DNA from: an uncultured Fibrobacteraceae bacterium
GTDB taxonomy: Bacteria; Krumholzibacteriota; Krumholzibacteriia; LZORAL124-64-63
NCBI GenBank assembly: GCA_964646035.1
Contig: CAZYDJ010000003.1
Coordinates: 1-59,694, forward strand
Length of the DNA: 59,694 nucleotides
Direction of reading: 5' to 3'
Shown in pieces: positions 36,565 to 52,190 of the stretch (the stretch's first letter is position 1; each line of letters begins with the position of its first letter). The translations under genes were made by a program, and so were the position numbers. The notes beneath the pieces were generated by a model. That model had not been told where the DNA came from, ran no database searches, and saw only the letters and a list, made by a program, of their open reading frames with translations.

Positions 36565-37641
36565 GTGACGGATGCGCGTGCTCTTTCACCCGAGGCGATC
36601 AGGTCGGCCCTCGCCGAGATCACCTGCCCTGGAACCAAAGTCGACATTGTTAAGATCAACCTCGTCGGCGATGTCCGGGTCGACGGCGATTCGGTCTCCG
36701 TGGAGATCGTTCGCACCAGCGAGAAGCCCGAGACCATCGCCGCGGTCAAGGAGCTGGTCGAAAAGAAGTTGGCCGGGATGCCGGGCGTCGGCTCGGCCGC
36801 GGTCCGGGTCACCGAACCCGAGGCACCCGCCGCCAAGACGGCCAAGGCCGCTCCAGATCCCTGGGCCGAGCGTTGTTCCCTCGCGGGCGTCAAGAAGATC
36901 GTCGCCGTGGCCAGCGGCAAGGGCGGAGTCGGCAAATCGACCGTCGCCGTGAATCTGGCCCTGGCGCTCAAGCAGAAGGGACATCGGGTCGGTTTGCTGG
37001 ACGCCGATATCTACGGCCCTTCGCTGCCGACGATGCTCGGCACCGAGGAACACCCCCAGGCCATCAGCGATACGGCCATCCTGCCGGTGGAATCCCACGG
37101 TCTGCAGGTCATCTCGATGGGGCTGCTGGTGCCCCCCGGCCAGGCCGTGGTCTGGCGCGGCCCGATGGTCATGGCCGCCATCCGCCAGTTCCTGAAGGAT
37201 GTGCAGTGGAACGACCTGGACTATCTGGTGGTGGACATGCCGCCCGGAACAGGCGACGCTCAGCTCACGCTGGTCCAGCAGGTGCCTGTCGACGGCGTGG
37301 TGATGGTGACCACGCCCCAGGAATTGGCGCTGGCCGACGTGCGGCGCGGAATCCAGATGTTCGGCCACGTTCGCGTGCCGGTCCTGGGCGTTGTGGAGAA
37401 CATGAGCTTCTTCCTCTGCCCGGACAACGGCAAGCGTTACGAGATCTTCGGCAGCGGCGGCGGCGCGGCGGTAGCCGAGCAGTTCGGGGTGCCCCTGCTG
37501 GGCCAGATCCCGATCGAGCCCGCCGTGCGGGCCGGCGGCGACAGCGGCGTGCCCGCGGTCGAAAGCGGCGAGGGAGAGGCCCGCTCCGCGTTCCTCGACC
37601 TGGCGGCGAAGGTGGCAGACGCACTCGAGTCCCAGGACTGA
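36565..37641 (+). CDS. apbC: Fe-S cluster carrier ATPase Mrp/ApbC (DUF59 + ParA-type P-loop)
   Basis: N-terminal ...ITCPGTKVDIVKINLV..., P-loop ASGKGGVGKST, ...MSFFLCPDNGKRYEIFG... Confidence 0.9.
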   Translation: MTDARALSPEAIRSALAEITCPGTKVDIVKINLVGDVRVDGDSVSVEIVRTSEKPETIAAVKELVEKKLAGMPGVGSAAVRVTEPEAPAAKTAKAAPDPWAERCSLAGVKKIVAVASGKGGVGKSTVAVNLALALKQKGHRVGLLDADIYGPSLPTMLGTEEHPQAISDTAILPVESHGLQVISMGLLVPPGQAVVWRGPMVMAAIRQFLKDVQWNDLDYLVVDMPPGTGDAQLTLVQQVPVDGVVMVTTPQELALADVRRGIQMFGHVRVPVLGVVENMSFFLCPDNGKRYEIFGSGGGAAVAEQFGVPLLGQIPIEPAVRAGGDSGVPAVESGEGEARSAFLDLAAKVADALESQD

Positions 37642-37644
37642 CGG

Positions 37645-38877
37645 ATGATTGATCGAATCCGGAATCTCGATGCGACCGGCTGGGCCGGCGTCAGCCTGGG
37701 CATCCTGGCCCTGACGTCGACCCTGTCCATCTCCATCAGCCAGATCGCGCTGGGTTTGTGCCTGGTGTCGATGCTGTGGCTCCGGCGCACCGGTCGGATC
37801 GCCGGAGGAATCGGCCTGGGCCCGATAGCGGCGGCCCTGATCATCTGGGCGGTGGCGATGATCCCGCTCTCGACCGACGTCCACCAGAGCCTCGTATTCT
37901 CGCGGCGCTGGTACCTGCTGGGCGGGGTCTGGGCCGGCTATTGCCTCTGCCGCGGCGAGACGATGCGGCGTCGCATCTACGCTATGATGATCCTCGGCGC
38001 CTTGTCCCTCGCGATCGTGGGATTTTTCCAGGTATTCCGATACGGCCTTCCCAACATCGACTCTTTCGGCAAGTTGATCCGCCGCATCGAGTTGCTGCAG
38101 AACTACATGACCGGCGGCGGATTGTTGATGATGACGGGGTTGGCCGCACTGGCCGGCGTCCTGGCGCTGCCTCGCGGCCGGATGCGGTGGGCGTTGATCG
38201 TGATCCTGTTCCCGATTCTCCTGTCCCTGCTGCTGACGATGACGCGAAGCGCCTGGCTGGGCTTCATCGCCGGCTCGGCCGTCATCCTGAGGCTGAAGTA
38301 CCGGCGAGGCGGCATCCTGATCCTGGTCGTGGCGGCGGTCTTCTACTTTCTGCTGCCGGGCGTGATGAAGGAGAGGCTGGGCTCGATCCTCGATCCGCAG
38401 TACAGCAGCAACTACGAGCGCATCGCGATGTGGGAGAAGGGCCTGGATCTGGTGGGCCGGCATCCGCTGCTCGGGGTCGGAGACCGGGATCTGGCGCGGA
38501 TCAGCGAGGATGATTGGCAGGAGCCTCTGGGCTGGGGCCATCTCCACGATAATTTCCTGATGTTCGCGGTCATCTGGGGCCTGCCCGGGTTGATCCTCGG
38601 CTCGGCCCTGCTGTTGTGGGCGGGATGGTTGTTGTTGCGCGCCTGGCAGAGTCTGCCGCGACCGGGGATCGGCGCCGATCCGCCGGCGGACGAACCGTAT
38701 CGCCGTGTCTGGGTCCTTTCCGGAATCGGGGTCTGGACCGGGTTCATGGTGTTGGGGCTTTTCGATTGGAATTTCGGCGACGCGGAGCCGGTGCTGTTGC
38801 TCTGGCTGGTTACAGGCATCGCCTTATCCGCGGGAATTCGTCCCGTACCGCTGGACAGCGGTAGTGCTAATTCATAG
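37645..38877 (+). CDS. O-antigen ligase-like (Wzy_C domain) polytopic membrane protein
   Basis: About 10 hydrophobic segments, ...LLLTMTRSAWLGF... motif. Starts 3 nt after the mrp stop. Confidence 0.7.
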   Translation: MIDRIRNLDATGWAGVSLGILALTSTLSISISQIALGLCLVSMLWLRRTGRIAGGIGLGPIAAALIIWAVAMIPLSTDVHQSLVFSRRWYLLGGVWAGYCLCRGETMRRRIYAMMILGALSLAIVGFFQVFRYGLPNIDSFGKLIRRIELLQNYMTGGGLLMMTGLAALAGVLALPRGRMRWALIVILFPILLSLLLTMTRSAWLGFIAGSAVILRLKYRRGGILILVVAAVFYFLLPGVMKERLGSILDPQYSSNYERIAMWEKGLDLVGRHPLLGVGDRDLARISEDDWQEPLGWGHLHDNFLMFAVIWGLPGLILGSALLLWAGWLLLRAWQSLPRPGIGADPPADEPYRRVWVLSGIGVWTGFMVLGLFDWNFGDAEPVLLLWLVTGIALSAGIRPVPLDSGSANS

Positions 38878-38887
38878 AGTTGCTGTC

Positions 38888-39349
38888 ATGAATCTGACCG
38901 ACTACATGACCGAATACCGGATGCTGCCCCGCCTCGACTGCCGCGACAAGCGCGAGATCGTGGCGCGGATGGTGGAGGCGCTTTCAGTGGAGGGATCGGT
39001 TTCCTCGGCGGCGGGTCTGGCCGCCGACATCCTGCGTCGCGAGGACGAGGAGCCGACCGCCCTGGGACTCGGCCTGGCGCTGCCCCATGCCCGTTCGGCA
39101 AAGATCGACGGGATAGCGGTCGTCGTCGCCACTCTCGCCGAACCTCTCGATATGGGCGCCGCAGACGGCAGGCCGGTCGACGTCGTGATTCTCAGTGTCG
39201 GCCCGCTTGAAGACCCGCGCGGGATGCTGCGCGTGCTGGCGAAACTGGCCCGCGTCGTGAAGCAGCGCGGCTTTCTCGATTCGCTTCGTCTCGCCGCCGG
39301 GCCTCAGCAGATGCTGATGACCGTTGAAAGAGCCGAATCAAATATCTAA
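38888..39349 (+). CDS. PTS EIIA(Ntr)-like regulatory protein (PtsN family), paralog 1
   Basis: ...LGLGLALPHARS (His site)...VDVVILSVGP... Internal ATG of track ORF 38705-39349. Confidence 0.75.
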   Translation: MNLTDYMTEYRMLPRLDCRDKREIVARMVEALSVEGSVSSAAGLAADILRREDEEPTALGLGLALPHARSAKIDGIAVVVATLAEPLDMGAADGRPVDVVILSVGPLEDPRGMLRVLAKLARVVKQRGFLDSLRLAAGPQQMLMTVERAESNI

Positions 39350-39478: not shown

Positions 39479-41827
39479 ATGTCCAGTCCTCTCCAGCGGG
39501 TCCTATCCATTTTCTGGCTGGCCTTGTTGGCCGTTGCCGTGATGGCCCCCGCCTGTCTCGCCCAGGATCACATCGTCTTTACCGAGGTGGTGCTGACCGA
39601 GCGTTCAGGTGTGCCCGGTCTCGGGTGCGAGTACATCGAACTCGCCAACCCCGGCGCCACCGAAGTGGATCTGTCGGATGTGTTCCTCACCGATGCCACC
39701 CGCATCACCCAGCCCACCCAGTACTACGAGATCGTCACCGGCTCCGCCGCCGGCGGCGGGGGAACCGCCGGCGATTTCCACTGCCGTTTCCCGCAGGGCG
39801 CCACGATCGCTCCGGGAGACACGATCCTGATCTCGGTCGTGGGCAGCAACGCCTTCTTCGCCTCCTACCAGCGCCTGCCGGATTTCGAGCTTTTCGAGGA
39901 CGGGCTCACGCCTGATACCATCCCCGAAATGGTCGAGGTCTTTCCCGGCAGCGTGGGCTACGGCCTGGGCTCGGGCGGCACCAACACCCTCAGCGCCGAG
40001 CAGTGGCTGGGCGACACCAACGGCGCGCTGCTGCTCTACACCTGGGACGGGGAGTCGGATCTGGTCTCCGATCTGGACTATGTGCATTGGGGAGCCTTGA
40101 GCACGGTCCGCATCGACAAGTCGGGCGTGGCTGTCGACGGCCCTGACGCCGACGGGGAATCGTCTGCCTATGCCGCGGACACTCCGGCTTCATCCCAGCA
40201 GCCGATCAGCACCGCCACCTTCAGGTTCGGCGATTCCTTCCAGAGGAACGCATTCGCCGAAGGAGCGGAAATCGCGACCGGCGGCAACGGGATTTCGGGC
40301 CACGACGAGACCAGCGAACCGCTGGCCTCGACCTGGACCCAGTTCACCGGCAGCCAGGATCCGGCCGCTTCGCCCGTTGTCAACCTGCCGCCCGCGCCGA
40401 TCATCATCGCGACGGAATTGTCTCCCGCCGTTCCGCGGGAGAACCAGGGCGCGACCGTGACGGTCACGGCCCTGGCCGCTGACGGCGTGGCGACGATGAC
40501 TATCTGGTACAGGGTGGACGGGGGCGCCTTCATCGACGTCGCCTGCTCCGACAACGGCGACGACACCTGGGACGGAACGATACCCGGCCAGGCTCTCGAC
40601 GCCGTAGTCGACTGGTATCTGTCCACTACGGGCACCGGCGGCGGAGTCGCCCACCGGCCCGTCGCGGCGCCCACCTACGTGGAAACCTACACCGTCGTCG
40701 CCGCGCCCGAACCCGGCGAGGGTCCGGCCAAGCTGCTGCTGACCGAGATCTGCACCAAGGGCTCGGCCGGCGAATTCATCGAGATCATGAATCCCAACGA
40801 TTTCGACGTGAACCTCGGCGACTACTATCTCACCGACGCGGTCTACTACGAGCAGGGCTACTTCAAGATCGCCGCCGGCGCCACCCAGACGACCGTCGGC
40901 GGCGGCGCGTTCTACGACTTCAACGCCCGCTTCCCCGAGGACGCGGTCCTGCCCGCCGGCGAGTCGACCACCATCTCGGTCCCGGGCAGCAACAGTTTCG
41001 CCGATACCTATCTGGGATCCATCCCCGGTTACGAGCTCTTCGAGGACGGAGATTTCGCCGACCAGGTGCCGGATATGCGCGAGATATTCCCCGGCAGCAT
41101 CCGCGGCACCGACATCCCGTCGTTGACCAACATCAACCTCGATACGAGCGGTGGCGAGATCGTCGTCCTCTATTACTGGGACGGCGTCAGCGACCTGACC
41201 GTCGATATCGACGCCTTCGCCTGGGGCGACGGCAACAGCTACCGCTACAACAAGAGCGGCTTGACGGTCCTGTCCAGCAGCTACGCTCCCGAGGCCGGCT
41301 ATCCCAACCCGTATATGGCCGACCACGGTTTCGAGGAGTCGTTCCAGCGGGTCGACTTCACCGAGGGGACCCAGACCGCCGTCGGCAGCAACGGTGTCGA
41401 CGGCCGGGACGAGACCAGCGAGAACCTGCCCCTGACCTGGGGCGTCGCTCCGGTCGATCCCGCTTCGCCGCCGCTGCCCGAGGGCGCCGGCGTGGTTACC
41501 CTGAGCACTCCGCCGCGCACCTTCCTGCCGACCATGGCGGAGGGATTCCCGGTGAGCTTCTCTTCGGCGCCGGGCAGCCTGACCATCCTGCGGATCTTCG
41601 ATCTCGACGGTCGTCTCGTGCGCACGCTCTACCACAGCCAGTTCGACGGTCCCGCCTCGGTCGATCCCGAGCACCCGACCGAGATGTTCTGGGACGGTCG
41701 TAACGACGAATTCGAGCTGGTCAAGGCCGGCATGTACATCGTGCACCTTTCGGTGCGGAATTCCGAGAACGGCGACTCCGAGACGAAGACAGCGCCCGCG
41801 GTCGTCGCGACTCGGCTGAGCAAGTGA
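39479..41827 (+). CDS. Secreted protein with two lamin-tail-domain (LTD) modules, a central Ig-like region and a FlgD-Ig / T9SS-type C-terminal domain
   Basis: Signal peptide ...VMAPACLA. LTD-like ...FTEVVL...CEYIELANPGATEVDLSDVFLTD... and ...LLLTEIC...GEFIEIMNPNDFDVNLGDYYLTD... C-terminus is ...LTILRIFDLDGRLVRTLYH...FWDGRND..ELVKAGMYIVHL... Confidence 0.75.
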   Translation: MSSPLQRVLSIFWLALLAVAVMAPACLAQDHIVFTEVVLTERSGVPGLGCEYIELANPGATEVDLSDVFLTDATRITQPTQYYEIVTGSAAGGGGTAGDFHCRFPQGATIAPGDTILISVVGSNAFFASYQRLPDFELFEDGLTPDTIPEMVEVFPGSVGYGLGSGGTNTLSAEQWLGDTNGALLLYTWDGESDLVSDLDYVHWGALSTVRIDKSGVAVDGPDADGESSAYAADTPASSQQPISTATFRFGDSFQRNAFAEGAEIATGGNGISGHDETSEPLASTWTQFTGSQDPAASPVVNLPPAPIIIATELSPAVPRENQGATVTVTALAADGVATMTIWYRVDGGAFIDVACSDNGDDTWDGTIPGQALDAVVDWYLSTTGTGGGVAHRPVAAPTYVETYTVVAAPEPGEGPAKLLLTEICTKGSAGEFIEIMNPNDFDVNLGDYYLTDAVYYEQGYFKIAAGATQTTVGGGAFYDFNARFPEDAVLPAGESTTISVPGSNSFADTYLGSIPGYELFEDGDFADQVPDMREIFPGSIRGTDIPSLTNINLDTSGGEIVVLYYWDGVSDLTVDIDAFAWGDGNSYRYNKSGLTVLSSSYAPEAGYPNPYMADHGFEESFQRVDFTEGTQTAVGSNGVDGRDETSENLPLTWGVAPVDPASPPLPEGAGVVTLSTPPRTFLPTMAEGFPVSFSSAPGSLTILRIFDLDGRLVRTLYHSQFDGPASVDPEHPTEMFWDGRNDEFELVKAGMYIVHLSVRNSENGDSETKTAPAVVATRLSK
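39566..41447 (+). repeat. Internal duplication: two ~240-260 aa LTD-containing modules (39566-40347 and 40728-41447)
   Basis: Collinear matches: YELFEDG/FELFEDG, VFPGS/IFPGS, LLLYTWDGESDLVSDLDYVHWG vs VVLYYWDGVSDLTVDIDAFAWG, FQRNAFAEG vs FQRVDFTEG, NGISGHDETSEPLASTW vs NGVDGRDETSENLPLTW. Confidence 0.8.
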
Positions 41828-41841: not shown

Positions 41842-42753
41842 ATGACACGGAAAATGATGCTGTTCGGCGTCGCTTTGGTTCTCGGCCTCTCCGCGTTGCC
41901 TGCGTTCGCGGCCTTCGAGAACGTCGACATCAGCCCCCGGGCCCGGGCCATGGGCGGCGCGGGCGCGGCGGTCGCCGACGACGCCTTCGCCCCTTATTTC
42001 AACCCTGCCGGAATCATGTTGCAGGAGGATATCGCCCTCGGCACCAGCTATGTCCGGCCTTACGGTCTCGACTTCACCGATCTCGTCTATCTGGGCGCGG
42101 TCGTCCCGCTGAGCGGGAAATCGGGCGGCTTCGGTTTCGGCCTGCGCCGGTTCGCGGTCGAATACCAGGATGTCGATCTCACCACCGAGACCACCATCAC
42201 CGCGTCCTATGCGGCCAAGGTCTACGAGGATCTCCACTCGTCGGTCACCTTCGGATCGAGCCTCAACTTCAATCACCTGGAGTTCGGCGAGTCGATCGGC
42301 TCCGGCATGGAAGCTGACGATTCCATCGATCCCGGTGATGACTGGGCGGTCGGTCTCGACGTCGGCATGATGGTGACCCTGCACGAGCGCACTCGTCTCG
42401 GAGTGATGGTCAAGAACCTGAACAACCCGCAGATCGGCATCGACGAGGAAGAGCTCGGACAACGCCTGATCGGCGGCGTCAGCTATCTGCCGTACGACGG
42501 GGTAGTCACGACGTTCGAGTTCGAGAACGCCCTCGACGGCGAACTGCAGTACCACGGCGGCGTCGAGATGACCGCCATGGAGAATCTGTTCCTGCGTTGC
42601 GGCGTGGCTACCAACCCGCAGAAGCTTACAGCGGGATTCGGCTACGGCATGGAAGGTCTGATAGTCAACTACGGCTTCTCGACCGGTGGCGGAACCCTCG
42701 ATTCCTCCCACCAGTTCGGGCTGACCTTCACCTGGGGTGGTGAAGCGCCGTGA
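41842..42753 (+). CDS. PorV/PorQ- or FadL-like outer-membrane beta-barrel
   Basis: Signal peptide ...ALPAFA. ...SPRARAMGGAGAAVADDAFAPYFNPAGI... is typical of the PorV/UPF0164/FadL N-terminal motif. Alternating beta pattern. Confidence 0.65.
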   Translation: MTRKMMLFGVALVLGLSALPAFAAFENVDISPRARAMGGAGAAVADDAFAPYFNPAGIMLQEDIALGTSYVRPYGLDFTDLVYLGAVVPLSGKSGGFGFGLRRFAVEYQDVDLTTETTITASYAAKVYEDLHSSVTFGSSLNFNHLEFGESIGSGMEADDSIDPGDDWAVGLDVGMMVTLHERTRLGVMVKNLNNPQIGIDEEELGQRLIGGVSYLPYDGVVTTFEFENALDGELQYHGGVEMTAMENLFLRCGVATNPQKLTAGFGYGMEGLIVNYGFSTGGGTLDSSHQFGLTFTWGGEAP

Positions 42754-45251
42754 GAAATACCTGGATTATTCCCGCGATAGCGCTGCTGCTGCTTGGCGCC
42801 GCGATGGCGCCTGCCGGCGCCGCCGATCAGCAGGAACCGCTGGATCTCAACCGGGCCGTCCTGGAAGAGGTCGCGGCCCTGCCGATACCGGCGGAGTTGG
42901 CTCGCAGCATCATCGACTATCGCACTTATGTCCGATTCTTCGCCAGCGTCTACGACCTGATGGAGGTCGAGGGGATGACCGCCGATTATCTGGCGGTCCT
43001 GCGGCCCCTGGTCTCGACGCTGCCGCCGGATGTGGGCGACGCCTCGATGGCCCGTCTGACCGCCAGCTACCGGCAGGCGGCCAGGTATCTGGGCCAGGAA
43101 GGCGCCAGCGAGGGTTTGGTCGATGAGTACCTGGACATGCTGCGGGATCCGGTCGATGTCAACGACCTGGATATATTCGACCTGCAGAGCTTCCAGAACG
43201 TGTCGCCGGTCGACGCCAAGAACATCCTCAAATCGCGCAATCGGCTGGGTCGTTTCGACGAAGCCCGGCAGCTGCGCGCCAGCGAGAATCTGCGCTACTG
43301 GGCCTATCGGAACATCCGGGATTTCGTCTATTACACCGATGCGGAGAAGGACGAACTCCAGGACAAGATCCACGGCAACTACCAGGTGCGTTACTACGAT
43401 TCGCCGTACATGCTCGACGACGAGGAGATCACGGCCGATTCCGACCGCAGTCTGCAGCAGCGGCTGATCATGGGCGATCCGCACATGACCCACAAGCTGA
43501 CGCTGAATCTCGGCGGCGGGGTGCGCGCGGGTCTGCTCACCCACCGCAACATGGGCGAGCAGTCCTGGAGCGAGACGCTCAAGGGCTATTACGGCGTCGA
43601 CAACCAGCACTTCGGCCCCTTCCACCTGAAGAGGCTCTACTTCGGCAACTACCGGCTCTCCTTCGGGCAGGGCCTGATCATGGACAACACCGATTTCGCC
43701 ATGTACCGCAAGACCGGCTACGGTTGGAACAAGCGTCCTCAGGGAGTGCGCGGCGATCTGAGCCGCAGCCATGAATACGCTTTGACCGGAGTCGCGGTCG
43801 AAGGCGCAGCCGGACCGATCCACGCCACCTTCTTCAGCTCCTGGGAAAAGAAGGACGGCATCCTCAATACGCCCGATCCGGTTACCGGCGATGTCACGGT
43901 CAACCGTTACGTCACGATGGAGCCCCGGCTCGAGAACAGCCTGCTCGACAACAGGCTGACCGACACCTTCGAGCCCACGGGCCTGCGTCGCGACGCCTTC
44001 GAAGAGGACATCGTCGGCGGCAACATCAAGCTGATGCTCGGGACGGCGACCTACGTCGGGATCACCGGATACGAGGCCAAGTACGACAAGGCCTTCTCTC
44101 CGGATCCGGCGACGCTGGTGGCCGACCTCGGCAAGCTCGAGACCCGCGACAGCGAGATCCTCGCCGGCTACAACAGCGTCGAGATCGATCCCGAAAGCGG
44201 CGAACGCACGTTCCACAAGTTTCGCCGGGTCTACGGCGCCGAGTTCCAGACCGTCTTCGACAACGTGGCCTTCCAGGGCGAATACGGAGTCCTGCAGGAT
44301 CCGAAGTCGAACCTGTTCCACGGCGACAACAAGGACGCCCTGGTCCTCAACGGCTACGCCCAGTGGGACGACCTGCACCTGCTGGGAATCTTCCGCGACT
44401 ACGACCTGGGCTACGACAACCCGTATAACCGGGCCTTCGCCAACGACAACCGCTACGAGCAGACGCTGCTCGACGCGCCGTACCGGATGAAGGACGACCT
44501 CTACAGCTGGCTGTCGCTCAACGAGCCCCAGCCCAAGCCGGAGAAGGGCATCTTCCTCCAGACCCGTTATCGGATCAGCCGCAGCCTGATCCTCAACGGT
44601 CTCGAGTACGACCAGTGGCAGCGGCAGGCCGACGGCACCGATCTGACCCGCTACACGGTCAAGGTCGAGTACCAGCCCATCTTCAATCTGCGTTTGCGGA
44701 TGCGGCATCGCTACAGCAGCCGTTCCGAGAGCGACATCTCGGACGTGCGCTGGTTCCAGTCGTGGGAGAGCAGGTGGGAACTGATCTCGATGCTTTCCAA
44801 CTACGACCGGCTGAAGTTCATGTATATGACCAGCAACGTGTGGTTCCCGCCGCGGCAGCGTCTCAGCGGGACACCCGAGCCCGGTTCCACTGGCAGCGGT
44901 CTCGGCACCGCGGCCATTCCGGCGCACGCGTTCCAGGTGATGTACGAGCACCACTTCACTCCGTATGTCAGGCTGCTTGTCAGCACCGAGATGTACGACG
45001 GATTCCTCTGGAACTTCGAGGGGAACGAGTTCGTGGTGGTGGACGGGCGGGGATTCCGCAACTGGGCCAAGATCGAGAGCCGGGTTTCCGAGCGGCTCCT
45101 GTTCCAACTCAAGGTGATGCGGGACCACAACCTGCCCCTGACGTATCTCGACGTCCGCGAGTACGGCGACGTCTACGGACCCGAACCGGAGAGTTCCTAC
45201 GTCCCGAACGACTGGACGACTTTCCGGATGCAGCTCGACTATTCCTTCTGA
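42750..45251 (+). CDS. 833-aa predicted outer-membrane protein: signal peptide + two ComEA-like helix-hairpin-helix motifs + ~650-aa beta-rich (barrel-like) region
   Basis: The GTG start overlaps the upstream stop (GTGA). ...LDLNRAVLEEVAALPIPAELARSIIDYR... and ...VDVNDLDIFDLQSFQNVSPVDAKNILKSRNRLGRF... Aromatic-rich alternating pattern. C-terminus is ...FRMQLDYSF. Confidence 0.6.
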   Translation: MRNTWIIPAIALLLLGAAMAPAGAADQQEPLDLNRAVLEEVAALPIPAELARSIIDYRTYVRFFASVYDLMEVEGMTADYLAVLRPLVSTLPPDVGDASMARLTASYRQAARYLGQEGASEGLVDEYLDMLRDPVDVNDLDIFDLQSFQNVSPVDAKNILKSRNRLGRFDEARQLRASENLRYWAYRNIRDFVYYTDAEKDELQDKIHGNYQVRYYDSPYMLDDEEITADSDRSLQQRLIMGDPHMTHKLTLNLGGGVRAGLLTHRNMGEQSWSETLKGYYGVDNQHFGPFHLKRLYFGNYRLSFGQGLIMDNTDFAMYRKTGYGWNKRPQGVRGDLSRSHEYALTGVAVEGAAGPIHATFFSSWEKKDGILNTPDPVTGDVTVNRYVTMEPRLENSLLDNRLTDTFEPTGLRRDAFEEDIVGGNIKLMLGTATYVGITGYEAKYDKAFSPDPATLVADLGKLETRDSEILAGYNSVEIDPESGERTFHKFRRVYGAEFQTVFDNVAFQGEYGVLQDPKSNLFHGDNKDALVLNGYAQWDDLHLLGIFRDYDLGYDNPYNRAFANDNRYEQTLLDAPYRMKDDLYSWLSLNEPQPKPEKGIFLQTRYRISRSLILNGLEYDQWQRQADGTDLTRYTVKVEYQPIFNLRLRMRHRYSSRSESDISDVRWFQSWESRWELISMLSNYDRLKFMYMTSNVWFPPRQRLSGTPEPGSTGSGLGTAAIPAHAFQVMYEHHFTPYVRLLVSTEMYDGFLWNFEGNEFVVVDGRGFRNWAKIESRVSERLLFQLKVMRDHNLPLTYLDVREYGDVYGPEPESSYVPNDWTTFRMQLDYSF

Positions 45252-45267
45252 CGGGGAGACCGAAGAT

Positions 45268-46566
45268 ATGATGACACGTTCCGACAAGCGCGACCTGCGG
45301 CGGTTCATCGCCGTCTTCGCCTGCGGGGCGGCGCTCGGCCTGATGGCTCCCGCCGCACTGGCCGGTTCGGCGCTGAATTTCCTCTACGGCGAGCCTGAGA
45401 CATTCCTCGGCGCCGAGATCAACGCCATGGGGAGCACCGGAGCCGCGGTTTTCCGCGGCGGCGCTTCCAACGTCCTGAACCCCGCAATGCTGGCCGACGT
45501 CGAGGGATTCCGCATCGATGCGGGGCTGTCCCTCGACCAGCGCCACGAGGATAGGTTCACCCCGTTGTGGGACAGCTTCGGCAACTATGTTGTCGATACC
45601 GCGATCGCATCCAACCGCGAGCACGGTTTCGGAACCGGATTCGGCTTCGCCGCCGATCTGGAGGGTTACGGCGTGCCTTTGGCCTGCGGCGTGTCCCTTA
45701 CCGACCGCTATTCGTTCGGATACGATTTCCAGGAGGACATCCGCAACCCGACGACGTATACCGACGGGCGCGACCTCATTATCGAGGAGAGGGAGTTGGA
45801 TGTCGCCGGCACCCTGCGTGATCTCTCGCTGGGCCTGGCCTATGCATCGGATCCCCGTTTCTCGTTCGGCGCCGCGGTGCATTACGCCTTCGGCAACCGT
45901 GACGAGCATCGTCTGTCGCGCGACTACGAGACCCCGGCCAACAGCACCGACGAGCGCCAGGAGTTCGACATGGACGGTGTCAACTTCTCCCTCGGCGCGC
46001 GGTTCACGCCGGACGACCGGCTGACCTTCGGCTTCTCCTGGGAAACCCCGCTGACCGTCGACGGCGACACCGACACGACGATCACGCCGTACTCCGGTGC
46101 CCGCGAGGTCTATTCCGGCACGGCCGAGGTCGAGTATCCTTCCCGGTACAGTTTCGGGATGGCCTACTATCCCCGCAACGAGTTGCGGACCGTGTTCACG
46201 GTCGATATGGTCATTTCCAACTGGAGCGACCTGACCGATAACCGTTTCGCCGAGGATCCGGTCCTCGAGGATACCTACGACGTGCGGATCGGACTGCAGC
46301 ACACCTTCTACAACGGTGTGCCGATGCGCTTCGGCTTCCGGCACGTGGACAGCTACGCCGACGTCGAGACCGGCCGCTCCTCCTTCTCGGCGGGCATCGG
46401 CAAGCCGCTGGCGAAGGGCATGATCGATGTCTCGGTCGAGCTGGGCAAGGTCTCCTTCGTCCAGGAACATTGGTTCGATTATCCCGCGGGATACGAATCC
46501 GCGGAGAGCGCCCGGGTCGAGGAGACCCACTTCCGGCTGGGCGTAGGTTACGTCCTGGAATTCTAG
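45268..46566 (+). CDS. FadL/PorV-like outer-membrane beta-barrel (second copy)
   Basis: Signal peptide ...PAALAGS. ...INAMGSTGAAVFRGGASNVLNPAMLA... C-terminus is ...FRLGVGYVLEF. Confidence 0.6.
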   Translation: MMTRSDKRDLRRFIAVFACGAALGLMAPAALAGSALNFLYGEPETFLGAEINAMGSTGAAVFRGGASNVLNPAMLADVEGFRIDAGLSLDQRHEDRFTPLWDSFGNYVVDTAIASNREHGFGTGFGFAADLEGYGVPLACGVSLTDRYSFGYDFQEDIRNPTTYTDGRDLIIEERELDVAGTLRDLSLGLAYASDPRFSFGAAVHYAFGNRDEHRLSRDYETPANSTDERQEFDMDGVNFSLGARFTPDDRLTFGFSWETPLTVDGDTDTTITPYSGAREVYSGTAEVEYPSRYSFGMAYYPRNELRTVFTVDMVISNWSDLTDNRFAEDPVLEDTYDVRIGLQHTFYNGVPMRFGFRHVDSYADVETGRSSFSAGIGKPLAKGMIDVSVELGKVSFVQEHWFDYPAGYESAESARVEETHFRLGVGYVLEF

Positions 46567-46629: not shown

Positions 46630-47970
46630 ATGTTCCCGCTCCGATCGTGCGGCCGCCGAAGCCGCTGCCGGCCGGTTCCGATTCCGGCGATCTGCCTGGT
46701 GGTCCTGGCCGCGGGTTGCGGCGGACCCGCCGCGCCGCCCGAACTCCTGCAGTCGCCGCTCGGCGACGTGACCGGAGCGGTGGTGCGCTGGACGACTTCC
46801 CGGCCTGCGCGGGCCGCCGTCCGCTACGGATTCGTTTCCGGTCGTTACGATCGGTTGGCCTATCCCGCCGCGGGCGGGGGAGACGACAAGGCCCGGCGGA
46901 CTGAACACGCGGTGCCGCTGCTGGCGCTTCCGCCGCGGACTCCGGTCTTCATCCGCAGGGTGAACACCGAGCCGGGGCTGGCCGCGGCCGTGGCCGCGCA
47001 GGAGACTCTGTTCTTCGCCGAGCCTCCGGCCTGTGCCCGGTTGCTGCGGTTCACCTCGGTGGATGTGCAGTTCGGCGACGCCCTGGTCCTGGAATGTCCC
47101 TCGGGAGCGGTTGTCCTGATCGACGCCGGTGATCCCGAGGAGGGCCGCGCCGGCGAAGCGGCTCCCGCGCATCTGATGCGCTGGCTCGATGACCACGGAG
47201 TCGATGGTTTGGCCGCGGCGGCCCTGACCCACGCGCATCGCGATCACGTCGGCGGTTTCGTCCGCGGCGGTATCGACGGCGTGGGGGTGGTCGACACCCG
47301 CGGCATCGGGGTTTTCCTGGACCTGCCCGCCCACTCGGGGGAGCGTCCGGACCACCGGACCCTGGTTGCGCGGCTGGAGGAACTCGGCGTACCCCGTCTG
47401 GCCGTTGCCCCGGGGATGACCGACGGATCGCATCCCGACCGTCTCGGCTGGGATCCCGCCCTGAGGGTTGAAGTGCTCCACGGCGGAGCCGAACCGGGCT
47501 GGAGCGATCTGAACAATGACTCGTTGGCCCTGCGCGTCGGCTACGGCGACGTGGACTTCCTGACCGTCGGGGACTGTGAGGCGGCGGCCGAAGAGCTGAT
47601 GCTCGAACGGTTTCCGGGGAAACTGGCGGGGATCGAGGTGCTCAAGGCGGGACATCACGGCCGCTCCGACGCCAGCGGCGGGTTGTTCCTCGACGCGGTG
47701 CTGCCCCGCACGGCTCTGGTGACGGTGGCATTTGCGGCTTATCGTGAAGGTGTAGCCGCGGGGGCCGAAGCCACCGCTCCGGTCCTGGCCCGGTTCGCGG
47801 CGCGGGGAACGGACGTTTTCCGGTTCGATGACGCGGAGCCGCTCGGCGAGCCCGCCGACACGCGAACTTTCTGGCATACGACCCTGGTCACCGACGGGGT
47901 CAGCTACGAGATCCGATTGGAACCGTCGGTCTGGGGTCTAACGAGATCCATCCCGGACGGACAGCCCTGA
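46630..47970 (+). CDS. Lipoprotein with ComEC/Rec2-type metallo-beta-lactamase domain
   Basis: Lipobox LAAGC. N-terminal beta-sandwich-like ...VVRWTTSRPARAAVRYG... MBL motifs ...VLIDAGD...LTHAHRDHVGG...LKAGHHGRSD... Confidence 0.75.
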   Translation: MFPLRSCGRRSRCRPVPIPAICLVVLAAGCGGPAAPPELLQSPLGDVTGAVVRWTTSRPARAAVRYGFVSGRYDRLAYPAAGGGDDKARRTEHAVPLLALPPRTPVFIRRVNTEPGLAAAVAAQETLFFAEPPACARLLRFTSVDVQFGDALVLECPSGAVVLIDAGDPEEGRAGEAAPAHLMRWLDDHGVDGLAAAALTHAHRDHVGGFVRGGIDGVGVVDTRGIGVFLDLPAHSGERPDHRTLVARLEELGVPRLAVAPGMTDGSHPDRLGWDPALRVEVLHGGAEPGWSDLNNDSLALRVGYGDVDFLTVGDCEAAAEELMLERFPGKLAGIEVLKAGHHGRSDASGGLFLDAVLPRTALVTVAFAAYREGVAAGAEATAPVLARFAARGTDVFRFDDAEPLGEPADTRTFWHTTLVTDGVSYEIRLEPSVWGLTRSIPDGQP

Positions 47971-47981
47971 GGAGAGGGGAT

Positions 47982-49721
47982 ATGAACCTGATGCGCAACG
48001 CCCTCCGCAACTCCGTGCCGCTGGCGGCGGCGCTGGTCCTGGCGGCGACGATCGTTTCCTTGCCCGGGACCGCCCTCTGCGGCGACGCCGACCAGGTGCG
48101 GCTGCACCTGATATGGACCAACGACGTGCACGGCCACGTCGCTCCCGAACCCGCCCGCTTCATGAACCCCAATTTCCCGCCCCCGCTGGGCGGCGGTGCG
48201 TCCATGGCGGCCTACATCAAGGGTATCCGGGAAGAAGCAGCCGCCGCCGGCGACGACGTCCTGCTGCTCGACGCCGGCGACTTCTTCCAGGGCGCTCCGG
48301 TCGGCTCCAAGACCCGCGGCGACGCCATGGTCGATTTCTATGACACCCTCGAATACGACGCCCTGGTTCCGGGCAACCATGATTTCGACATGGGACGCGA
48401 CAACACCGAGCGTCTGGCCGGGATGATGGACGTGCCCTGGGTCTGCGCCAACCTGCGCGAGGAGAGCACCGGCGAGATCGTCTCCTGGTGTCGTCCGACC
48501 CTGATGATCGAGAAGGCCGGGCTGAAGATCGGCGTCATCGGCATCATCACTCCCGGAACCGTCATCATGTCCTTCCCCGACAACATCAAGGGCTTGATCT
48601 TCGACCCCATGGCGCCGGTGATCGAACGCTATCGCGACGAATTGCTGGAGCAGGGAGCCGACCTGATCTGCCTGCTGATCCACGAGGGCCTGCCCTATGA
48701 CAAGGACAAGGCCTGGCGACAGTTGGCCAAGTCCGGCGATGAAGCCGACGACAACTCCCGCCAGGACTCGGGCGGGGCCTACGGCAGCGTCACCGGCGGC
48801 GCCATGGACCTGATGGAGCTGATGAACGTCGTTCCCGGCATCGACTTCGCCGTCGGCGGGCATTCCCACGTGGGATACCAGGAACCCTGGATCGATCCCG
48901 TCAACCACACTCTCTGCTTCGAGACCTACGGCAACGGATCGAGCGTCGGCCACTGCATCCTGAAGATCGATCGGCCCACCAAGCAGATCATCGGCTACGA
49001 CGCTCCGCATGATCGCGGAGTTCTCGTCACCCTCTTCGAGGACGAGTTGTGGCCAGACGCCGAGATGACAGCGGTCCTGCGTCCCCACATCGAGAAGACC
49101 GACGCCGAGATGGACGCCATTCTCGGCAGCTCCAGCATCAACCTCAATCGCGGCGGCCCCGGCAGCAACCTGGTGGGCAACCTGGTCACCGACGCGATGT
49201 GCGAGTATTTCGACGCTGATTTCTCGTTCCAGAACCTGGGTGGACTGCGCGCCAACATCTCGAGCGGCAACATCACCGCCCGTGACGTCTTCTCGGTCCT
49301 GCCCTTCGGCAACGAACTGGTCCTGGTGCAGATGAAGGGTTCGATGTTGCGCCGCATCGTCGAGCGGAAGGTCCGAGGCATGTCCGGCGGCATCTGCGTA
49401 TCCGGCGTGGAGGTCACGTTCAACAAGAATCGCCCCGACATGGACCGGGTCTGCAGCTTCCTGGTCGGCGGCGAGCCCCTGGATCACGAGAAGATCTACA
49501 GGGTCGTCTGCACCAGCTTCCTGATGGAGGGGAACAGCGGCCTCGATTTCCTCACCCAGATCAGCGCCGAGAACATCGAACTGACGCAGATCACGACCGC
49601 CGAATCGGTCGAGCGTTATCTCAAGCTGCACAGCCCCGTCCGCCCGCGGATCGACAACCGCTGGGTCGAGGACGGAAAGGCCGAACAGCAGCCTTATCTC
49701 GCGGTCCGGTACCTGCCCTGA
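47982..49721 (+). CDS. Secreted bifunctional metallophosphatase / 5'-nucleotidase
   Basis: Signal peptide. ...TNDVHGH...LLLDAGDFFQG...VPGNHDFD...GGHSH... plus a 5'-nucleotidase C-terminal-like ...FQNLGGLRA...FSVLPFGN... Confidence 0.85.
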   Translation: MNLMRNALRNSVPLAAALVLAATIVSLPGTALCGDADQVRLHLIWTNDVHGHVAPEPARFMNPNFPPPLGGGASMAAYIKGIREEAAAAGDDVLLLDAGDFFQGAPVGSKTRGDAMVDFYDTLEYDALVPGNHDFDMGRDNTERLAGMMDVPWVCANLREESTGEIVSWCRPTLMIEKAGLKIGVIGIITPGTVIMSFPDNIKGLIFDPMAPVIERYRDELLEQGADLICLLIHEGLPYDKDKAWRQLAKSGDEADDNSRQDSGGAYGSVTGGAMDLMELMNVVPGIDFAVGGHSHVGYQEPWIDPVNHTLCFETYGNGSSVGHCILKIDRPTKQIIGYDAPHDRGVLVTLFEDELWPDAEMTAVLRPHIEKTDAEMDAILGSSSINLNRGGPGSNLVGNLVTDAMCEYFDADFSFQNLGGLRANISSGNITARDVFSVLPFGNELVLVQMKGSMLRRIVERKVRGMSGGICVSGVEVTFNKNRPDMDRVCSFLVGGEPLDHEKIYRVVCTSFLMEGNSGLDFLTQISAENIELTQITTAESVERYLKLHSPVRPRIDNRWVEDGKAEQQPYLAVRYLP

Positions 49722-49868: not shown

Positions 49869-51116
<1,248 letters not shown>

Positions 51117-52133: not shown

Positions 52134-52190
52134 GACAGGGAGTGATTCGACATAGTATCGCAACGGGAAGACGGGCCTGTCGTCGAGGGA

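What the first reader, a model, noticed from the sequence alone, without database searches (positions are those of the whole stretch)
42750..45251. Helix-hairpin-helix domains fused to a giant predicted outer-membrane beta-barrel
After a signal peptide (…APAGA/ADQQ) come two segments with the ComEA/HHH_3 pattern: LDLNRAVLEEVAALPIPAELARSIIDYR and VDVNDLDIFDLQSFQNVSPVDAKNILKSRNRLGRF. About 650 aa follow, rich in alternating aromatic and polar residues, Gly/Asn/Asp turns and a terminal Phe (...RMQLDYSF), the usual BAM-recognition signature. A DNA-binding module covalently attached to an OM barrel is an unusual architecture. It would fit a DNA receptor or porin. The gene is translationally coupled (GTGA overlap) to the upstream PorV-like barrel.
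Basis: partly seen in the sequence, partly recalled or inferred. Interest (0 to 1): 0.7.

Follow-up and report, generated by a model that had tools for sequence, protein, structure and literature searches.

The report
ComEA-like domains fused to outer-membrane barrel
This gene encodes an undescribed outer-membrane protein, two ComEA-type helix-hairpin-helix modules fused to a predicted 24-strand barrel, that sits in an operon conserved across uncultured FCB-group phyla together with nucleic-acid-binding surface proteins and nucleotide-degrading enzymes, so it is probably the outer-membrane gate of a new kind of DNA/RNA scavenging system.

Summary
ORF 42750-45251 (+, GTG, 833 aa) has a signal peptide and two modules that each pass Pfam HHH_3 on their own. 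The modules superimpose on ComEA at about 2 Å. About 625 aa follow, modelled as 24 long antiparallel strands ending in an invariant C-terminal Phe. Foldseek matches only large outer-membrane barrels, and family-averaged strand amphipathicity is 7 SD above shuffles. No Pfam or NCBIfam model covers the barrel.

The family occurs only in uncultured FCB-superphylum lineages (Krumholzibacteriota, WOR-3, TA06, Cloacimonadota, Edwardsbacteria, Fermentibacteria). The gene is always preceded by a small PorP/PorV-like barrel (76/76 loci). It is usually followed by a FadL/BamG-like barrel (67/67) and a 5'-nucleotidase (55/55). Upstream lies a T9SS-tailed surface protein with LTD domains, or OB-fold/DUF5689-like domains in other phyla. 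Accessory genes are nuclease-like (ComEC-type MBL, NucT-type PLD, DHH).

Best reading (about 0.5): a TonB- and pilus-independent outer-membrane conduit for extracellular nucleic acid. It would be analogous, but not homologous, to Bacteroidota DdbCD and the Riemerella transformation barrel plus HhH protein.

Caveats: the HhH hairpins lack the canonical Gly-x-Gly, and the N-terminal region is acidic, so DNA binding is unproven.

The parts
42750..45251 (+). HhH-barrel gene (833 aa): signal peptide, two (HhH)2 modules, then a 24-strand outer-membrane barrel
   Evidence: ORF; HHH_3; AF2 model; Foldseek; more than 250 homologues
42750..42821 (+). Signal peptide (aa 1-24, cleavage after AGA)
   Evidence: Read from the sequence. 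A hydrophobic N-terminus is conserved in alignment A1. No predictor was run.
42831..43025 (+). HhH module 1 (aa 28-92). Acidic, with the non-canonical hairpins LP-IP and G-M-T.
   Evidence: HHH_3 at 34.8 bits on its own; alignment to ComEA 2duy; pI about 4.3-4.5; fold match to ComEA
43026..43145 (+). Inter-module linker (aa 93-132): a long helix plus a low-confidence acidic stretch with many invariant residues (Q116 E117 G118 E121 L123 D125 E126 Y127 D129)
   Evidence: Invariant columns in A1; pLDDT 39-47. Function unexplained.
43146..43334 (+). HhH module 2 (aa 133-195), containing NVSPVDAxxI and an Arg-rich C-terminal half
   Evidence: HHH_3 at 32.4 bits on its own. It is the most conserved N-terminal segment in distant homologues and is basic in them, with median pI 9.1.
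43371..45248 (+). 24-strand beta-barrel (aa 208-833) with a C-terminal QLDYSF beta-signal
   Evidence: DSSP strands; alternation of long loops and 2-5 residue turns; amphipathicity z=7.1; Foldseek to outer-membrane barrels; weak Pfam MtrB_PioB hit, 16 bits against a cutoff of 23
43662..43781 (+). Outward loop L3 (aa 305-344), GQGLxMDNTD...R..G..GDL. A conserved candidate constriction or binding loop.
   Evidence: Conservation map on distant alignment A2; invariant residues
44403..44540 (+). Outward loop L7 (aa 552-597), YDNPYxRxF... The most conserved loop.
   Evidence: mean top-residue frequency 0.56, with 9 positions at or above 0.8
41842..42753 (+). Small PorP/PorV/FadL-superfamily barrel (303 aa), overlapping the HhH-barrel gene by 4 nt
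   Evidence: Pfam PorP_SprF above cutoff and NCBIfam PorV_fam below cutoff. Present upstream in 76/76 species-representative loci and 8/8 distant loci.
39479..41827 (+). Secreted protein (782 aa) with two lamin-tail domains and a T9SS-type C-terminal sorting domain. Putative surface nucleic-acid binder.
   Evidence: LTD E=5e-16. The C-terminus matches the PorU C-terminal region and is homologous to the sorting tail of the WOR-3 OB-fold cargo, E=6e-11. Present in 61/64 loci.
45268..46566 (+). FadL/BamG-like outer-membrane barrel (432 aa)
   Evidence: NCBIfam BamG at 93 bits (cutoff 250) and Pfam Toluene_X at 24.8 bits (cutoff 29.7). Present in 67/67 loci.
46630..47970 (+). Accessory metallo-beta-lactamase-fold protein (446 aa, lipoprotein-like N-terminus) resembling the ComEC/Rec2 nuclease domain
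   Evidence: TIGR00361 E=1e-16, 60 bits against a cutoff of 190. Present in only 12/55 loci.
47982..49721 (+). Secreted 5'-nucleotidase / 2',3'-cyclic phosphodiesterase family enzyme (579 aa)
   Evidence: Pfam Metallophos plus 5_nucleotid_C, E=3e-33; UshA/CpdB-type NCBIfam hits. Present in 55/55 loci and 6/9 distant loci.
49869..51116 (+). Single-ring ClpB-D2-like AAA+ protein (415 aa). A conserved neighbour of unknown relation to the system.
   Evidence: AAA_2 plus ClpB_D2-small. Present in 47/53 Krumholzibacteriota loci and absent from distant loci.

Best explanation
The gene encodes the central outer-membrane subunit of a conserved envelope system for capturing and importing extracellular nucleic acid.

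Shown:
- After Sec export the protein consists of two ComEA-type (HhH)2 modules followed by a predicted 24-strand barrel.
- The gene always travels with a small PorP/PorV-like barrel.
- It usually also travels with a FadL/BamG-like barrel, a T9SS-tailed protein carrying LTD or OB-fold/DUF5689-like domains, and a secreted 5'-nucleotidase.

Inferred:
- The T9SS-exported LTD protein is held on the cell surface, perhaps by the small barrel, as PorP/SprF proteins hold their cognate cargo. There it binds DNA or RNA.
- The polymer, or fragments of it, passes through the 24-strand barrel. Two selectively conserved outward loops (L3 and L7) would form the specificity or constriction site.
- The HhH modules sit on the periplasmic face, as judged from strand topology. 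They would receive the incoming chain at the exit, as free ComEA does in competent bacteria.
- Periplasmic enzymes then reduce the chain to nucleosides and phosphate: always the 5'-nucleotidase, and in this window also a ComEC-like MBL protein.

The system would work like the Bacteroidota DdbCD DNA-utilisation transporter, or like the Riemerella transformation barrel plus its separate HhH protein. It would do so without a TonB-dependent plug and without a pilus.
For: - Architecture: HHH_3 matches twice. The N-terminal model has pLDDT 83.8 and matches ComEA 8dss/2duy at 1.9-2.2 Å. The profile search against PDB hits EEPD1 tandem HhH (7e-22) and ComEA (2e-12).
- Barrel: 24 strands at pTM 0.70. 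Only outer-membrane barrels appear in Foldseek. Amphipathicity is at z=7.1 with 0 of 500 shuffles reaching it. The C-terminal Phe is invariant.
- Topology: connections alternate between long loops (5-46 aa) and 2-5 residue turns. This places the N-terminal domain and the C-terminus on the short-turn, periplasmic side.
- Conservation: it is focused on loops L3 and L7 and on HhH module 2.
- Synteny over GTDB species representatives: small barrel 76/76, LTD 61/64, third barrel 67/67, 5'-nucleotidase 55/55.
- Non-orthologous partners with the same theme in other phyla: OB-fold / ExeM-NucH N-terminal-like / DUF5689-like cargo with T9SS tails; NucT-like PLD nucleases; a DHH phosphoesterase; a ComEC-like MBL in the window.
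- Tight coupling (overlaps of 1-11 nt, or a gap of a few nt) between the small barrel and the HhH barrel in six of the eight distant loci where the junction can be read.
- Precedent: Riemerella transformation needs a DUF5689 surface protein, an outer-membrane barrel and a periplasmic HhH protein (PMC8459023). B. thetaiotaomicron ddbABCDEF combines a DdbC barrel, a DdbD DUF5689 DNA binder and nucleases for DNA utilisation (PMC12478041).
Against: - No HhH hairpin keeps the canonical Gly-hydrophobic-Gly. Hairpin 1 is one residue shorter than in ComEA.
- The N-terminal region is acidic: median pI 4.7, net charge -9, and -12 in this protein. That is unlike what is expected of basic ComEA DNA-binding domains (from general knowledge, not computed here). 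The same fold also serves non-DNA roles, as in PsbU and GspK, which appear among the hits.
- No unambiguous nuclease is encoded in this window. The MBL match is below cutoff and the gene is present in only 12/55 loci.
- In two distant lineages only the small-barrel plus HhH-barrel pair remains. One of them, L090, has no nucleic-acid gene nearby.
- Foldseek TM-scores are low (0.2-0.3).
- All functional evidence is by association. Every organism concerned is uncultured.
Confidence: 0.5

Rival explanations
1. The three barrels form a T9SS-associated anchoring or sorting platform. Their job is to receive and hold the upstream CTD-bearing cargo on the cell surface, as PorV/PorQ/PorP-SprF do in Bacteroidota. 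The HhH modules would be a structural or protein-binding periplasmic domain. Any nucleic-acid function would belong only to the cargo and the enzymes.
For: - The upstream gene nearly always carries a T9SS-type C-terminal domain.
- The small barrel passes Pfam PorP_SprF and resembles PorV/PorQ.
- The third barrel's best matches are BamG and PorV/PorQ.
- The acidic, Gly-less HhH modules fit a non-DNA role.
- PorP/SprF-like genes are known to sit next to their cognate cargo genes (general T9SS knowledge).
Against: - No known T9SS component has HhH domains or a 24-strand barrel.
- No core T9SS gene (sprA, porK/L/M/N, porU) lies beside the cluster in about 90 loci.
- The 5'-nucleotidase has no recognisable sorting tail, yet it is conserved in 55/55 loci.
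- In L087, L090 and L092 the pair occurs without a recognisable CTD cargo immediately upstream.
Confidence: 0.2
2. It is a DNA-uptake pore for natural transformation. The barrel would replace the PilQ secretin and pilus, and the fused HhH modules would replace free ComEA. Intact DNA would be handed on to ComEC rather than degraded for food.
For: - The HhH modules are of ComEA type.
- The window's accessory MBL protein resembles the ComEC nuclease domain.
- The Riemerella precedent for barrel-based, pilus-free transformation in the FCB group (PMC8459023).
Against: - The universally linked enzyme is a 5'-nucleotidase/CpdB-type phosphoesterase, which points to breakdown to nucleosides.
- Other partners are degradative: NucT-like PLD, DHH, and an adjacent adenosine deaminase in L093.
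- No comEC, dprA or comF lies in any of the loci.
- Two tethered HhH modules cannot accumulate along DNA as free ComEA does.
Confidence: 0.12
3. It is an export or general-diffusion barrel unrelated to nucleic acid. One example would be a polymer-export porin with a periplasmic helical domain, in the manner of PgaA, BcsC or AlgE. Another would be a sheath-type barrel like MtrB/PioB. The nucleotidase linkage would then be incidental.
For: - O-antigen ligase and glycosyltransferase genes lie upstream in the window. Sugar-nucleotide and Bac_transf genes lie near the pair in L089 and L090.
- There is a weak sub-threshold MtrB_PioB match, E=0.0045.
Against: - The polysaccharide genes are not conserved neighbours, whereas the nucleic-acid-related partners recur across phyla in non-orthologous forms.
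- No Wza, Wzc, TPR or synthase partners are present.
- Conservation is concentrated in two outward loops, which is typical of substrate-specific channels.
Confidence: 0.08
4. The topology is reversed. The HhH modules would be threaded to the cell surface, like an autotransporter passenger, and act as an exposed DNA receptor.
For: A 24-strand lumen is wide enough to pass a small helical domain.
Against: - Only about 12 residues, partly helical, link HhH module 2 to strand 1.
- The even strand count, the C-terminal beta-signal and the loop/turn alternation place the N-terminus in the periplasm.
- The operon already encodes a dedicated surface binder, the LTD or OB-fold cargo.
Confidence: 0.05

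Closest known systems
Bacteroidota DNA-utilisation / transformation outer-membrane system: DdbC-DdbD of B. thetaiotaomicron ddbABCDEF, and Riemerella anatipestifer RA0C_RS04915, RS04920 and the HhH protein RA0C_RS02645 (PMC12478041, PMC8459023)
   Same: - Both belong to the FCB superphylum.
- Both are operons that combine a large outer-membrane barrel, a surface nucleic-acid-binding protein and secreted or periplasmic nucleic-acid hydrolases. In WOR-3 loci the surface binder is an OB-fold/DUF5689-like protein.
- Both involve a periplasmic HhH element.
- Neither uses a pilus.
   Different: - The barrel here has no Plug, TonB_dep_Rec or CarboxypepD_reg match. It has 24 modelled strands, not 22.
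- The HhH element is fused to the barrel rather than being a separate protein.
- The surface binder is a T9SS-tailed protein, not a lipoprotein.
- Two extra FadL/PorV-type barrels are obligatory partners.
- No detectable sequence homology to a TonB-dependent transporter family (no Plug, TonB_dep_Rec or CarboxypepD_reg match); DdbC itself was not compared directly.
ComEA (periplasmic or membrane-anchored competence DNA receptor; PDB 8dss, 8dfk, 2duy)
   Same: The same HHH_3 (HhH)2 fold, at 36-41% identity and about 2 Å rmsd. The inferred location is also periplasmic.
   Different: - Two tandem modules are covalently tethered to a barrel.
- The Gly-x-Gly hairpins are lost and the net charge is acidic.
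- TIGR01259 scores 28.9 bits against a cutoff of 152.
Chaperone-usher pore PapC/FimD
   Same: A 24-strand barrel with an N-terminal periplasmic domain that receives the substrate. These are among the Foldseek hits.
   Different: - No Usher, plug or C-terminal domains, and no chaperone gene nearby.
- TM-score is only about 0.27-0.30.
- The substrate is unrelated.
T9SS PorV/PorQ/PorP-SprF outer-membrane partners of CTD cargo
   Same: The adjacent small barrel passes Pfam PorP_SprF. The upstream gene is a CTD-bearing cargo. The arrangement of a cargo gene followed by its PorP-like gene matches the SprB-SprF logic.
   Different: The HhH barrel itself has no counterpart in described T9SS machinery. 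The PorV-family and BamG matches are below NCBIfam cutoffs.
PilQ secretin plus free ComEA (the classical Gram-negative DNA-uptake route)
   Same: The proposed division of labour is the same: an outer-membrane channel plus a periplasmic HhH DNA-binding element.
   Different: There is no secretin, pilus or ATPase. The channel is a monomeric beta-barrel, and the HhH element is in cis.

Membership tests
HHH_3 / ComEA-type (HhH)2 domain | Sequence match to Pfam PF12836 above the gathering score | tested here: met
   The whole protein scores 56 bits. Module 1 alone scores 34.8 bits and module 2 alone 32.4 bits, against a cutoff of 27.
HHH_3 / ComEA-type (HhH)2 domain | Five-helix (HhH)2 fold | tested here: met
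   The AF2 N-terminal model has pLDDT 83.8. Foldseek matches 8dss_B at rmsd 1.9 Å and 2duy at rmsd 2.2 Å with TM 0.81.
ComEA (functional DNA receptor) | Canonical Gly-hydrophobic-Gly hairpins that contact the DNA backbone | tested here: not met
   The hairpins read LP-IPAELA, VEGMTADYL and NVSPVDAKNI. No G-h-G is present in any hairpin across 49 close and 35 distant homologues.
ComEA (functional DNA receptor) | Basic DNA-binding surface | tested here: inconclusive
   The N-terminal region is acidic overall (pI 4.5, net charge -12). However, the C-terminal half of module 2 is Arg-rich, and module 2 is basic in distant members, with median pI 9.1.
ComEA (functional DNA receptor) | NCBIfam TIGR01259 / TIGR00426 trusted cutoff | tested here: not met
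   28.9 bits against 152, and 21.7 bits against 53.
ComEA (functional DNA receptor) | Binds DNA in vitro | not testable with these tools
   Needs EMSA or anisotropy on aa 25-205.
Outer-membrane beta-barrel protein (BAM substrate) | Even number of long antiparallel strands, with long outward loops alternating with short periplasmic turns | tested here: met
   There are 24 strands. The loops measure 28, 11, 40, 39, 45, 12, 46, 5, 10, 27, 6 and 27 aa. The turns measure 2-5 aa.
Outer-membrane beta-barrel protein (BAM substrate) | Dyad-repeat amphipathic strands (a lipid face and a lumen face) | tested here: met
   With family-averaged hydrophobicity, 20/24 strands qualify: 2.93 against 1.72 ± 0.17, z=7.1. 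The single-sequence version is weak, at about 1.9 SD.
Outer-membrane beta-barrel protein (BAM substrate) | C-terminal aromatic beta-signal and an N-terminal signal peptide | tested here: met
   The protein ends ...QLDYSF and F833 is invariant. The signal peptide was read from the sequence.
Outer-membrane beta-barrel protein (BAM substrate) | Structural similarity to solved outer-membrane barrels | tested here: met
   The top 50 Foldseek hits are all outer-membrane barrels, at probability 1.00 and E down to 1.5e-8. TM-scores are only 0.2-0.3.
Outer-membrane beta-barrel protein (BAM substrate) | Closed barrel (strand 1 pairs with strand 24) | not testable with these tools
   Model coordinates are not exposed.
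TonB-dependent transporter / DdbC | N-terminal plug with TonB box; TonB_dep_Rec barrel of 22 strands | tested here: not met
   There is no Plug, TonB_dep_Rec or CarboxypepD_reg hit, even at E<=10 on the barrel alone. The model has 24 strands.
Chaperone-usher pore | Usher Pfam domains, a mid-barrel plug, C-terminal domains and an adjacent chaperone gene | tested here: not met
   No such Pfam hits and no chaperone gene in the locus.
ddb-like DNA-utilisation locus (system level) | An outer-membrane transporter gene next to a surface DNA-binding protein gene (DUF5689) | tested here: inconclusive
   In the window the upstream partner is an LTD protein, with no DUF5689 hit. In WOR-3 loci the upstream cargo hits DUF5689 below threshold, at 20.6 and 23.9 bits against 28.6, together with an OB-fold.
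ddb-like DNA-utilisation locus (system level) | Secreted or periplasmic nucleic-acid hydrolases in the locus | tested here: met
   5'-nucleotidase in 55/55 loci. ComEC-like MBL in the window. NucT-like PLD in L085 and DHH in L091.
ddb-like DNA-utilisation locus (system level) | Locus required for depletion of exogenous DNA | not testable with these tools
   All the organisms are uncultured.
T9SS PorP/SprF-PorV family (upstream 303-aa gene) | Family HMM cutoffs | tested here: inconclusive
   Pfam PorP_SprF scores 26.3 bits against a cutoff of 22.3, so that test is met. NCBIfam PorV_fam scores 66.9 against 90, and T9SS_PorP_fam scores 23.1 against 90.6, so those are not met.

The most novel reading that the evidence does not exclude
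This would be a third, previously unrecognised route for polymeric DNA across a Gram-negative outer membrane. It is neither a secretin with a pilus nor a TonB-dependent transporter. Instead, a monomeric 24-strand barrel has a ComEA-like receiver built into its periplasmic face. It would be fed by a T9SS-anchored surface DNA binder and flanked by two FadL/PorV-type barrels. The system is conserved across at least six uncultured FCB phyla.
Probability: 0.3. Interest if true: 0.85.

Novelty: new variant of a known kind. Interest (0 to 1): 0.68.

Why it matters
How nucleic acids cross the outer membrane without a type IV pilus is only beginning to be understood. The Bacteroidota answer, a TonB-dependent barrel with a DUF5689 partner, was published only in 2021-2025. 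This family suggests that the sister candidate phyla of the FCB group solved the same problem differently. These phyla are abundant in sediments, sludge and soils. Their solution would be an energy-independent module with a fused ComEA-like domain.

If confirmed, three things would follow:
- It would give a genomic marker for extracellular-DNA scavenging, which is a large phosphorus and nitrogen flux in sediments, in lineages that have no cultured members.
- It would provide a compact barrel-plus-receiver protein for studying DNA translocation.
- It would be a new example of T9SS cargo being built into a nutrient-uptake machine.

Tried and rejected
- The genome scan with the diverse alignment A2 failed because it had no conserved stretch to search with. 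It was repeated with A1.
- Searches of PDB by single sequence and by family profile found only HhH relatives and no barrel family.
- Pfam and NCBIfam give nothing for the barrel except a sub-threshold MtrB_PioB hit.
- Foldseek TM-scores were too low to assign the barrel to the TBDT, usher, LptD or SlpA class.
- The single-sequence amphipathicity test was only about 1.9 SD above shuffles. It was replaced by the family-averaged test.
- The promoter and terminator scan gave counts no higher than in shuffles. The sigma-70 consensus is probably not applicable to this phylum.
- Literature searches for HhH plus outer-membrane barrel plus T9SS, and for eDNA plus T9SS plus nuclease plus nucleotidase, returned nothing.
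- BamG identity for the downstream barrel was considered and not adopted: it scores 93 bits against a cutoff of 250 (PMC12611786).
- The MAG labels 'Fibrobacteraceae', 'Gemmatimonas' and 'Saccharimonadaceae' were treated as unreliable automatic names, because the best-named relatives are Krumholzibacteriota.
- Barrel closure, plug content and the HhH position could not be read, because model coordinates are not returned.

Full report
**1.

- The ORF listing gives an ORF at 42750..45251 (+), with a GTG start and 833 aa.
- Its third-position GC is 0.87, which marks it as the coding frame. The 879-aa ORF on the opposite strand (42669..45308) is a high-GC shadow.
- The N-terminus (MRNTWIIPAIALLLLGAAMAPAGA/ADQQ) has the n-, h- and c-regions of a Sec signal peptide. 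This is read from the sequence.
- The upstream ORF's TGA stop at 42751-42753 overlaps the GTG start at 42750, so the GTGA overlap is real.
- Pfam HHH_3 matches at E=4e-15 with two stretches. Scanned separately, aa 25-97 score 34.8 bits and aa 125-205 score 32.4 bits, both above the 27-bit gathering score.
- Nothing in Pfam or NCBIfam covers aa ~206-833. At a permissive threshold the barrel alone gives only a sub-threshold MtrB_PioB porin hit, at 16 bits against a cutoff of 23.

**2. Structure**

- An AF2 model built on 49 homologues has pLDDT 73.6 and pTM 0.70. It shows a helical N-terminal region (aa 30-205) followed by 24 long antiparallel strands between aa 208 and 831.
- Foldseek against the PDB returns only large outer-membrane barrels. 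These are Deinococcus SlpA (E=1.5e-8), TonB-dependent transporters, PapC/FimD ushers, LptD and Occ porins, all at probability 1.00.
- TM-scores are only 0.2-0.3. The fold class is therefore supported, but no specific family is.
- The connections between strands alternate strictly. The long loops measure 28, 11, 40, 39, 45, 12, 46, 5, 10, 27, 6 and 27 aa. The turns measure 2-5 aa. This is the classic outer-membrane-protein pattern. It places the N-terminal domain and the C-terminal Phe on the short-turn, periplasmic side.
- I tested membrane character with hydrophobicity averaged over 36 diverse homologues. 20 of 24 strands contain a 9-residue window with a hydrophobic face opposite a polar face. 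The mean difference is 2.93, against 1.72 ± 0.17 for shuffled columns (z=7.1, 0 of 500 shuffles reach it).
- The single-sequence version of this test is weak, at about 1.9 SD.
- F833, D830, Q828 and R826 are invariant.
- A separate model of aa 25-205 has pLDDT 83.8. It shows two five-helix modules joined by a long helix.
- The best Foldseek matches of that model are ComEA. 8dss matches at rmsd 1.9 Å and 36% identity. 2duy matches at rmsd 2.2 Å, TM 0.81 and 41% identity. PsbU, KIF22, Tex and TEFM follow.

**3. Caveat on DNA binding**

- Aligned to ComEA, hairpin 1 is one residue shorter and reads LP-IPAELA, where ComEA has LPGIGPVLA. Hairpin 2 reads VEGMT. The module 2 hairpin reads NVSPVDA. 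No Gly-hydrophobic-Gly is present in any of the 49 close or 35 distant homologues.
- The N-terminal region is acidic, with median pI 4.7 and net charge -9, and -12 in this protein. However, the C-terminal half of module 2 is Arg-rich, and module 2 is basic in distant members, with median pI 9.1.
- The same fold serves non-DNA roles in PsbU and GspK, which appear among the weaker hits.
- The fold is therefore established, but DNA binding is not.
- An acidic, low-confidence linker at aa ~104-129 carries a striking run of invariant residues. This remains unexplained.

**4. Family and distribution**

- More than 250 close homologues exist. [quoted passage not shown]
- A profile search of 1.84 billion cluster representatives finds 133 at E<1e-30. 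Full-length members of about 800 aa are found down to about 25% identity.
- All of the examined full-length members keep both HhH modules, the conserved loop motifs and the C-terminal QLDYxF.
- Source names place these members in WOR-3, TA06, Cloacimonadota, Edwardsbacteria and Fermentibacteraceae, and in MAGs labelled Gemmatimonadota, Elusimicrobiota or Eisenbacteria.
- Every one is a MAG from the FCB-superphylum neighbourhood. No named member comes from a cultured organism.
- In distant homologues conservation is not uniform. Outward loops L3 (aa 305-344, GQGLxMDNTD...) and L7 (aa 552-597, YDNPYxRxF) and HhH module 2 are the most conserved. The other long loops vary freely. This is the pattern expected of a substrate-specific channel.

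**5. Gene context**

- The window itself is ordinary chromosome. It carries ribosomal protein L2, SecY, RpoA, FabH, MetRS and others.
- Around the gene, all on the + strand with gaps of -4 to 63 nt, lie the following genes:
  - an LTDx2 protein with a T9SS-type C-terminal domain (39479-41827);
  - a 303-aa PorP/PorV-like barrel (41842-42753);
  - the HhH barrel;
  - a 432-aa FadL/BamG-like barrel (45268-46566);
  - a ComEC-nuclease-like MBL lipoprotein (46630-47970);
  - a 5'-nucleotidase/CpdB-type enzyme (47982-49721).
  A ClpB-D2-like AAA+ gene follows after a 147-nt gap.
- I scored 80 GTDB species-representative loci with phmmer. Counts are given for loci with enough flank:

| Neighbour | Present |
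|---|---|
| Small barrel, upstream | 76/76 |
| LTD protein | 61/64 |
| Third barrel, downstream | 67/67 |
| 5'-nucleotidase | 55/55 |
| MBL | 12/55 |
| AAA+ | 47/53 |

- Nine loci from more distant phyla gave the following:
  - The small barrel is present in 8 of the 8 loci where the upstream DNA exists.
  - The third barrel is present in 6/9.
  - A 5'-nucleotidase-type enzyme is present in 6/9.
- In five of eight of those loci the upstream gene is again a T9SS-tailed protein, but with different nucleic-acid-type domains. These are OB-fold, the N-terminal part of ExeM/NucH extracellular endonucleases (E about 3e-18), and sub-threshold DUF5689.
- The C-terminal domain of the window's LTD protein is homologous to the tail of the WOR-3 OB-fold cargo, at E=6e-11.
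- Other partners in the distant loci are two NucT-like PLD nucleases (L085), a DHH phosphoesterase (L091) and an adjacent adenosine deaminase (L093).
- In two lineages (L089, L090) only the pair of small barrel plus HhH barrel remains. That pair is therefore the strict core.

**6. Interpretation**

- The same theme recurs across phyla, built from non-orthologous parts: surface nucleic-acid-binding folds, nucleases and nucleotidases. This is the strongest evidence that the barrel trio handles extracellular nucleic acid.
- The literature gives a close functional precedent inside the same superphylum.
  - Riemerella natural transformation requires a DUF5689 surface protein, an outer-membrane barrel and a separate periplasmic HhH protein (PMC8459023).
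  - B. thetaiotaomicron ddbABCDEF combines the TonB-dependent barrel DdbC, the DUF5689 DNA binder DdbD and nucleases. It forms a PUL-like DNA-utilisation locus (PMC12478041).
- The present system has the same logic but different hardware:
  - it has no plug or TonB box;
  - it has 24 rather than 22 strands;
  - the HhH element is fused in cis;
  - its surface binders are T9SS-tailed;
  - it has two obligatory FadL/PorV-type partner barrels.
- The universal 5'-nucleotidase favours nutritional breakdown over transformation.
- I put about 0.5 on this nucleic-acid import reading. The rivals are:
  - about 0.2 on a T9SS cargo-anchoring platform with a structural HhH domain;
  - about 0.12 on a competence pore;
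  - smaller weights on an unrelated export or diffusion barrel and on a surface-exposed HhH receptor.

**7. Novelty and limits**

- The protein family is undescribed. No curated model exists for the barrel, and no paper was found. It is not homologous to the known DNA-transporting barrels.
- At system level it is a new variant of the recently recognised FCB DNA-utilisation and uptake loci.
- Three things limit the conclusion. All functional inference is by association. Model coordinates could not be inspected. All hosts are uncultured.

Noticed in passing
window 42669-45308 (-): An 879-aa ORF runs antisense across the whole HhH-barrel gene. It is a high-GC shadow ORF: the + frame has GC3 of 0.87, Pfam hits and hundreds of homologues. 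Similar long shadow ORFs cover most genes in the window (for example 36586-38547 on the - strand and 47904-50945 on the - strand).
   Followed up: partly
window 43059-43136 (aa ~104-129 of the HhH-barrel protein): The linker between the two HhH modules is acidic and has low pLDDT (39-47). Yet it carries one of the densest runs of invariant residues in the protein (Q116 E117 G118 E121 L123 D125 E126 Y127 D129). It could be a partner-binding or lumen-inserting segment. This remains unexplained.
   Followed up: partly
window 49869-51116 (+): A 415-aa protein consists only of a ClpB-D2-like AAA+ ring and the D2-small domain. It has no N-domain, no D1 ring and no middle domain. It follows the 5'-nucleotidase in 47/53 Krumholzibacteriota loci but not in other phyla. 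Its relation to the cluster is unknown.
   Followed up: partly
window 38705-39349 (+) and 51554-52153 (-): Two PTS EIIA-2 (nitrogen-regulatory type) genes bracket the cluster. Both positions recur in most related loci, in the order EIIA, LTD ... AAA+, EIIA on the opposite strand. This suggests a conserved regulatory neighbourhood.
   Followed up: partly
window 46630-47970 (+): The MBL-fold protein has a lipoprotein-like N-terminus (…VVLAAGC). It resembles the nuclease domain of ComEC/Rec2 (E=1e-16, below cutoff). It is an accessory insertion found in only 12/55 related loci.
   Followed up: partly
window 22881-23870 (+); L093 3539-4648: An adenosine deaminase gene lies about 20 kb upstream in the window. 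In one distant lineage (L093) an adenosine deaminase sits immediately next to the OB-fold cargo gene of the cluster. This may be a downstream nucleoside-catabolism link, or it may be coincidence.
   Followed up: no
L007, L012, L018 (MAG CAYMCR01): One MAG carries three copies of the LTD / small-barrel / HhH-barrel cluster on different contigs, at 64-68% identity to the query. These are either true paralogous clusters or a mixed bin.
   Followed up: no
window 17564-21309 (+): Adjacent genes carry ABC_transp_aux/DUF7088 and DUF4340 domains. This is a GldG-like auxiliary pair of an uncharacterised ABC transport system, typical of FCB-group genomes.
   Followed up: no
L005-L084 record titles: Many MAGs that carry the cluster are labelled 'uncultured Fibrobacteraceae', 'Gemmatimonas sp.', 'Saccharimonadaceae' or 'Latescibacterota'. 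Their cluster proteins are nevertheless 45-75% identical to Krumholzibacteriota ones and fully syntenic. The public taxonomic labels of these bins look unreliable.
   Followed up: no
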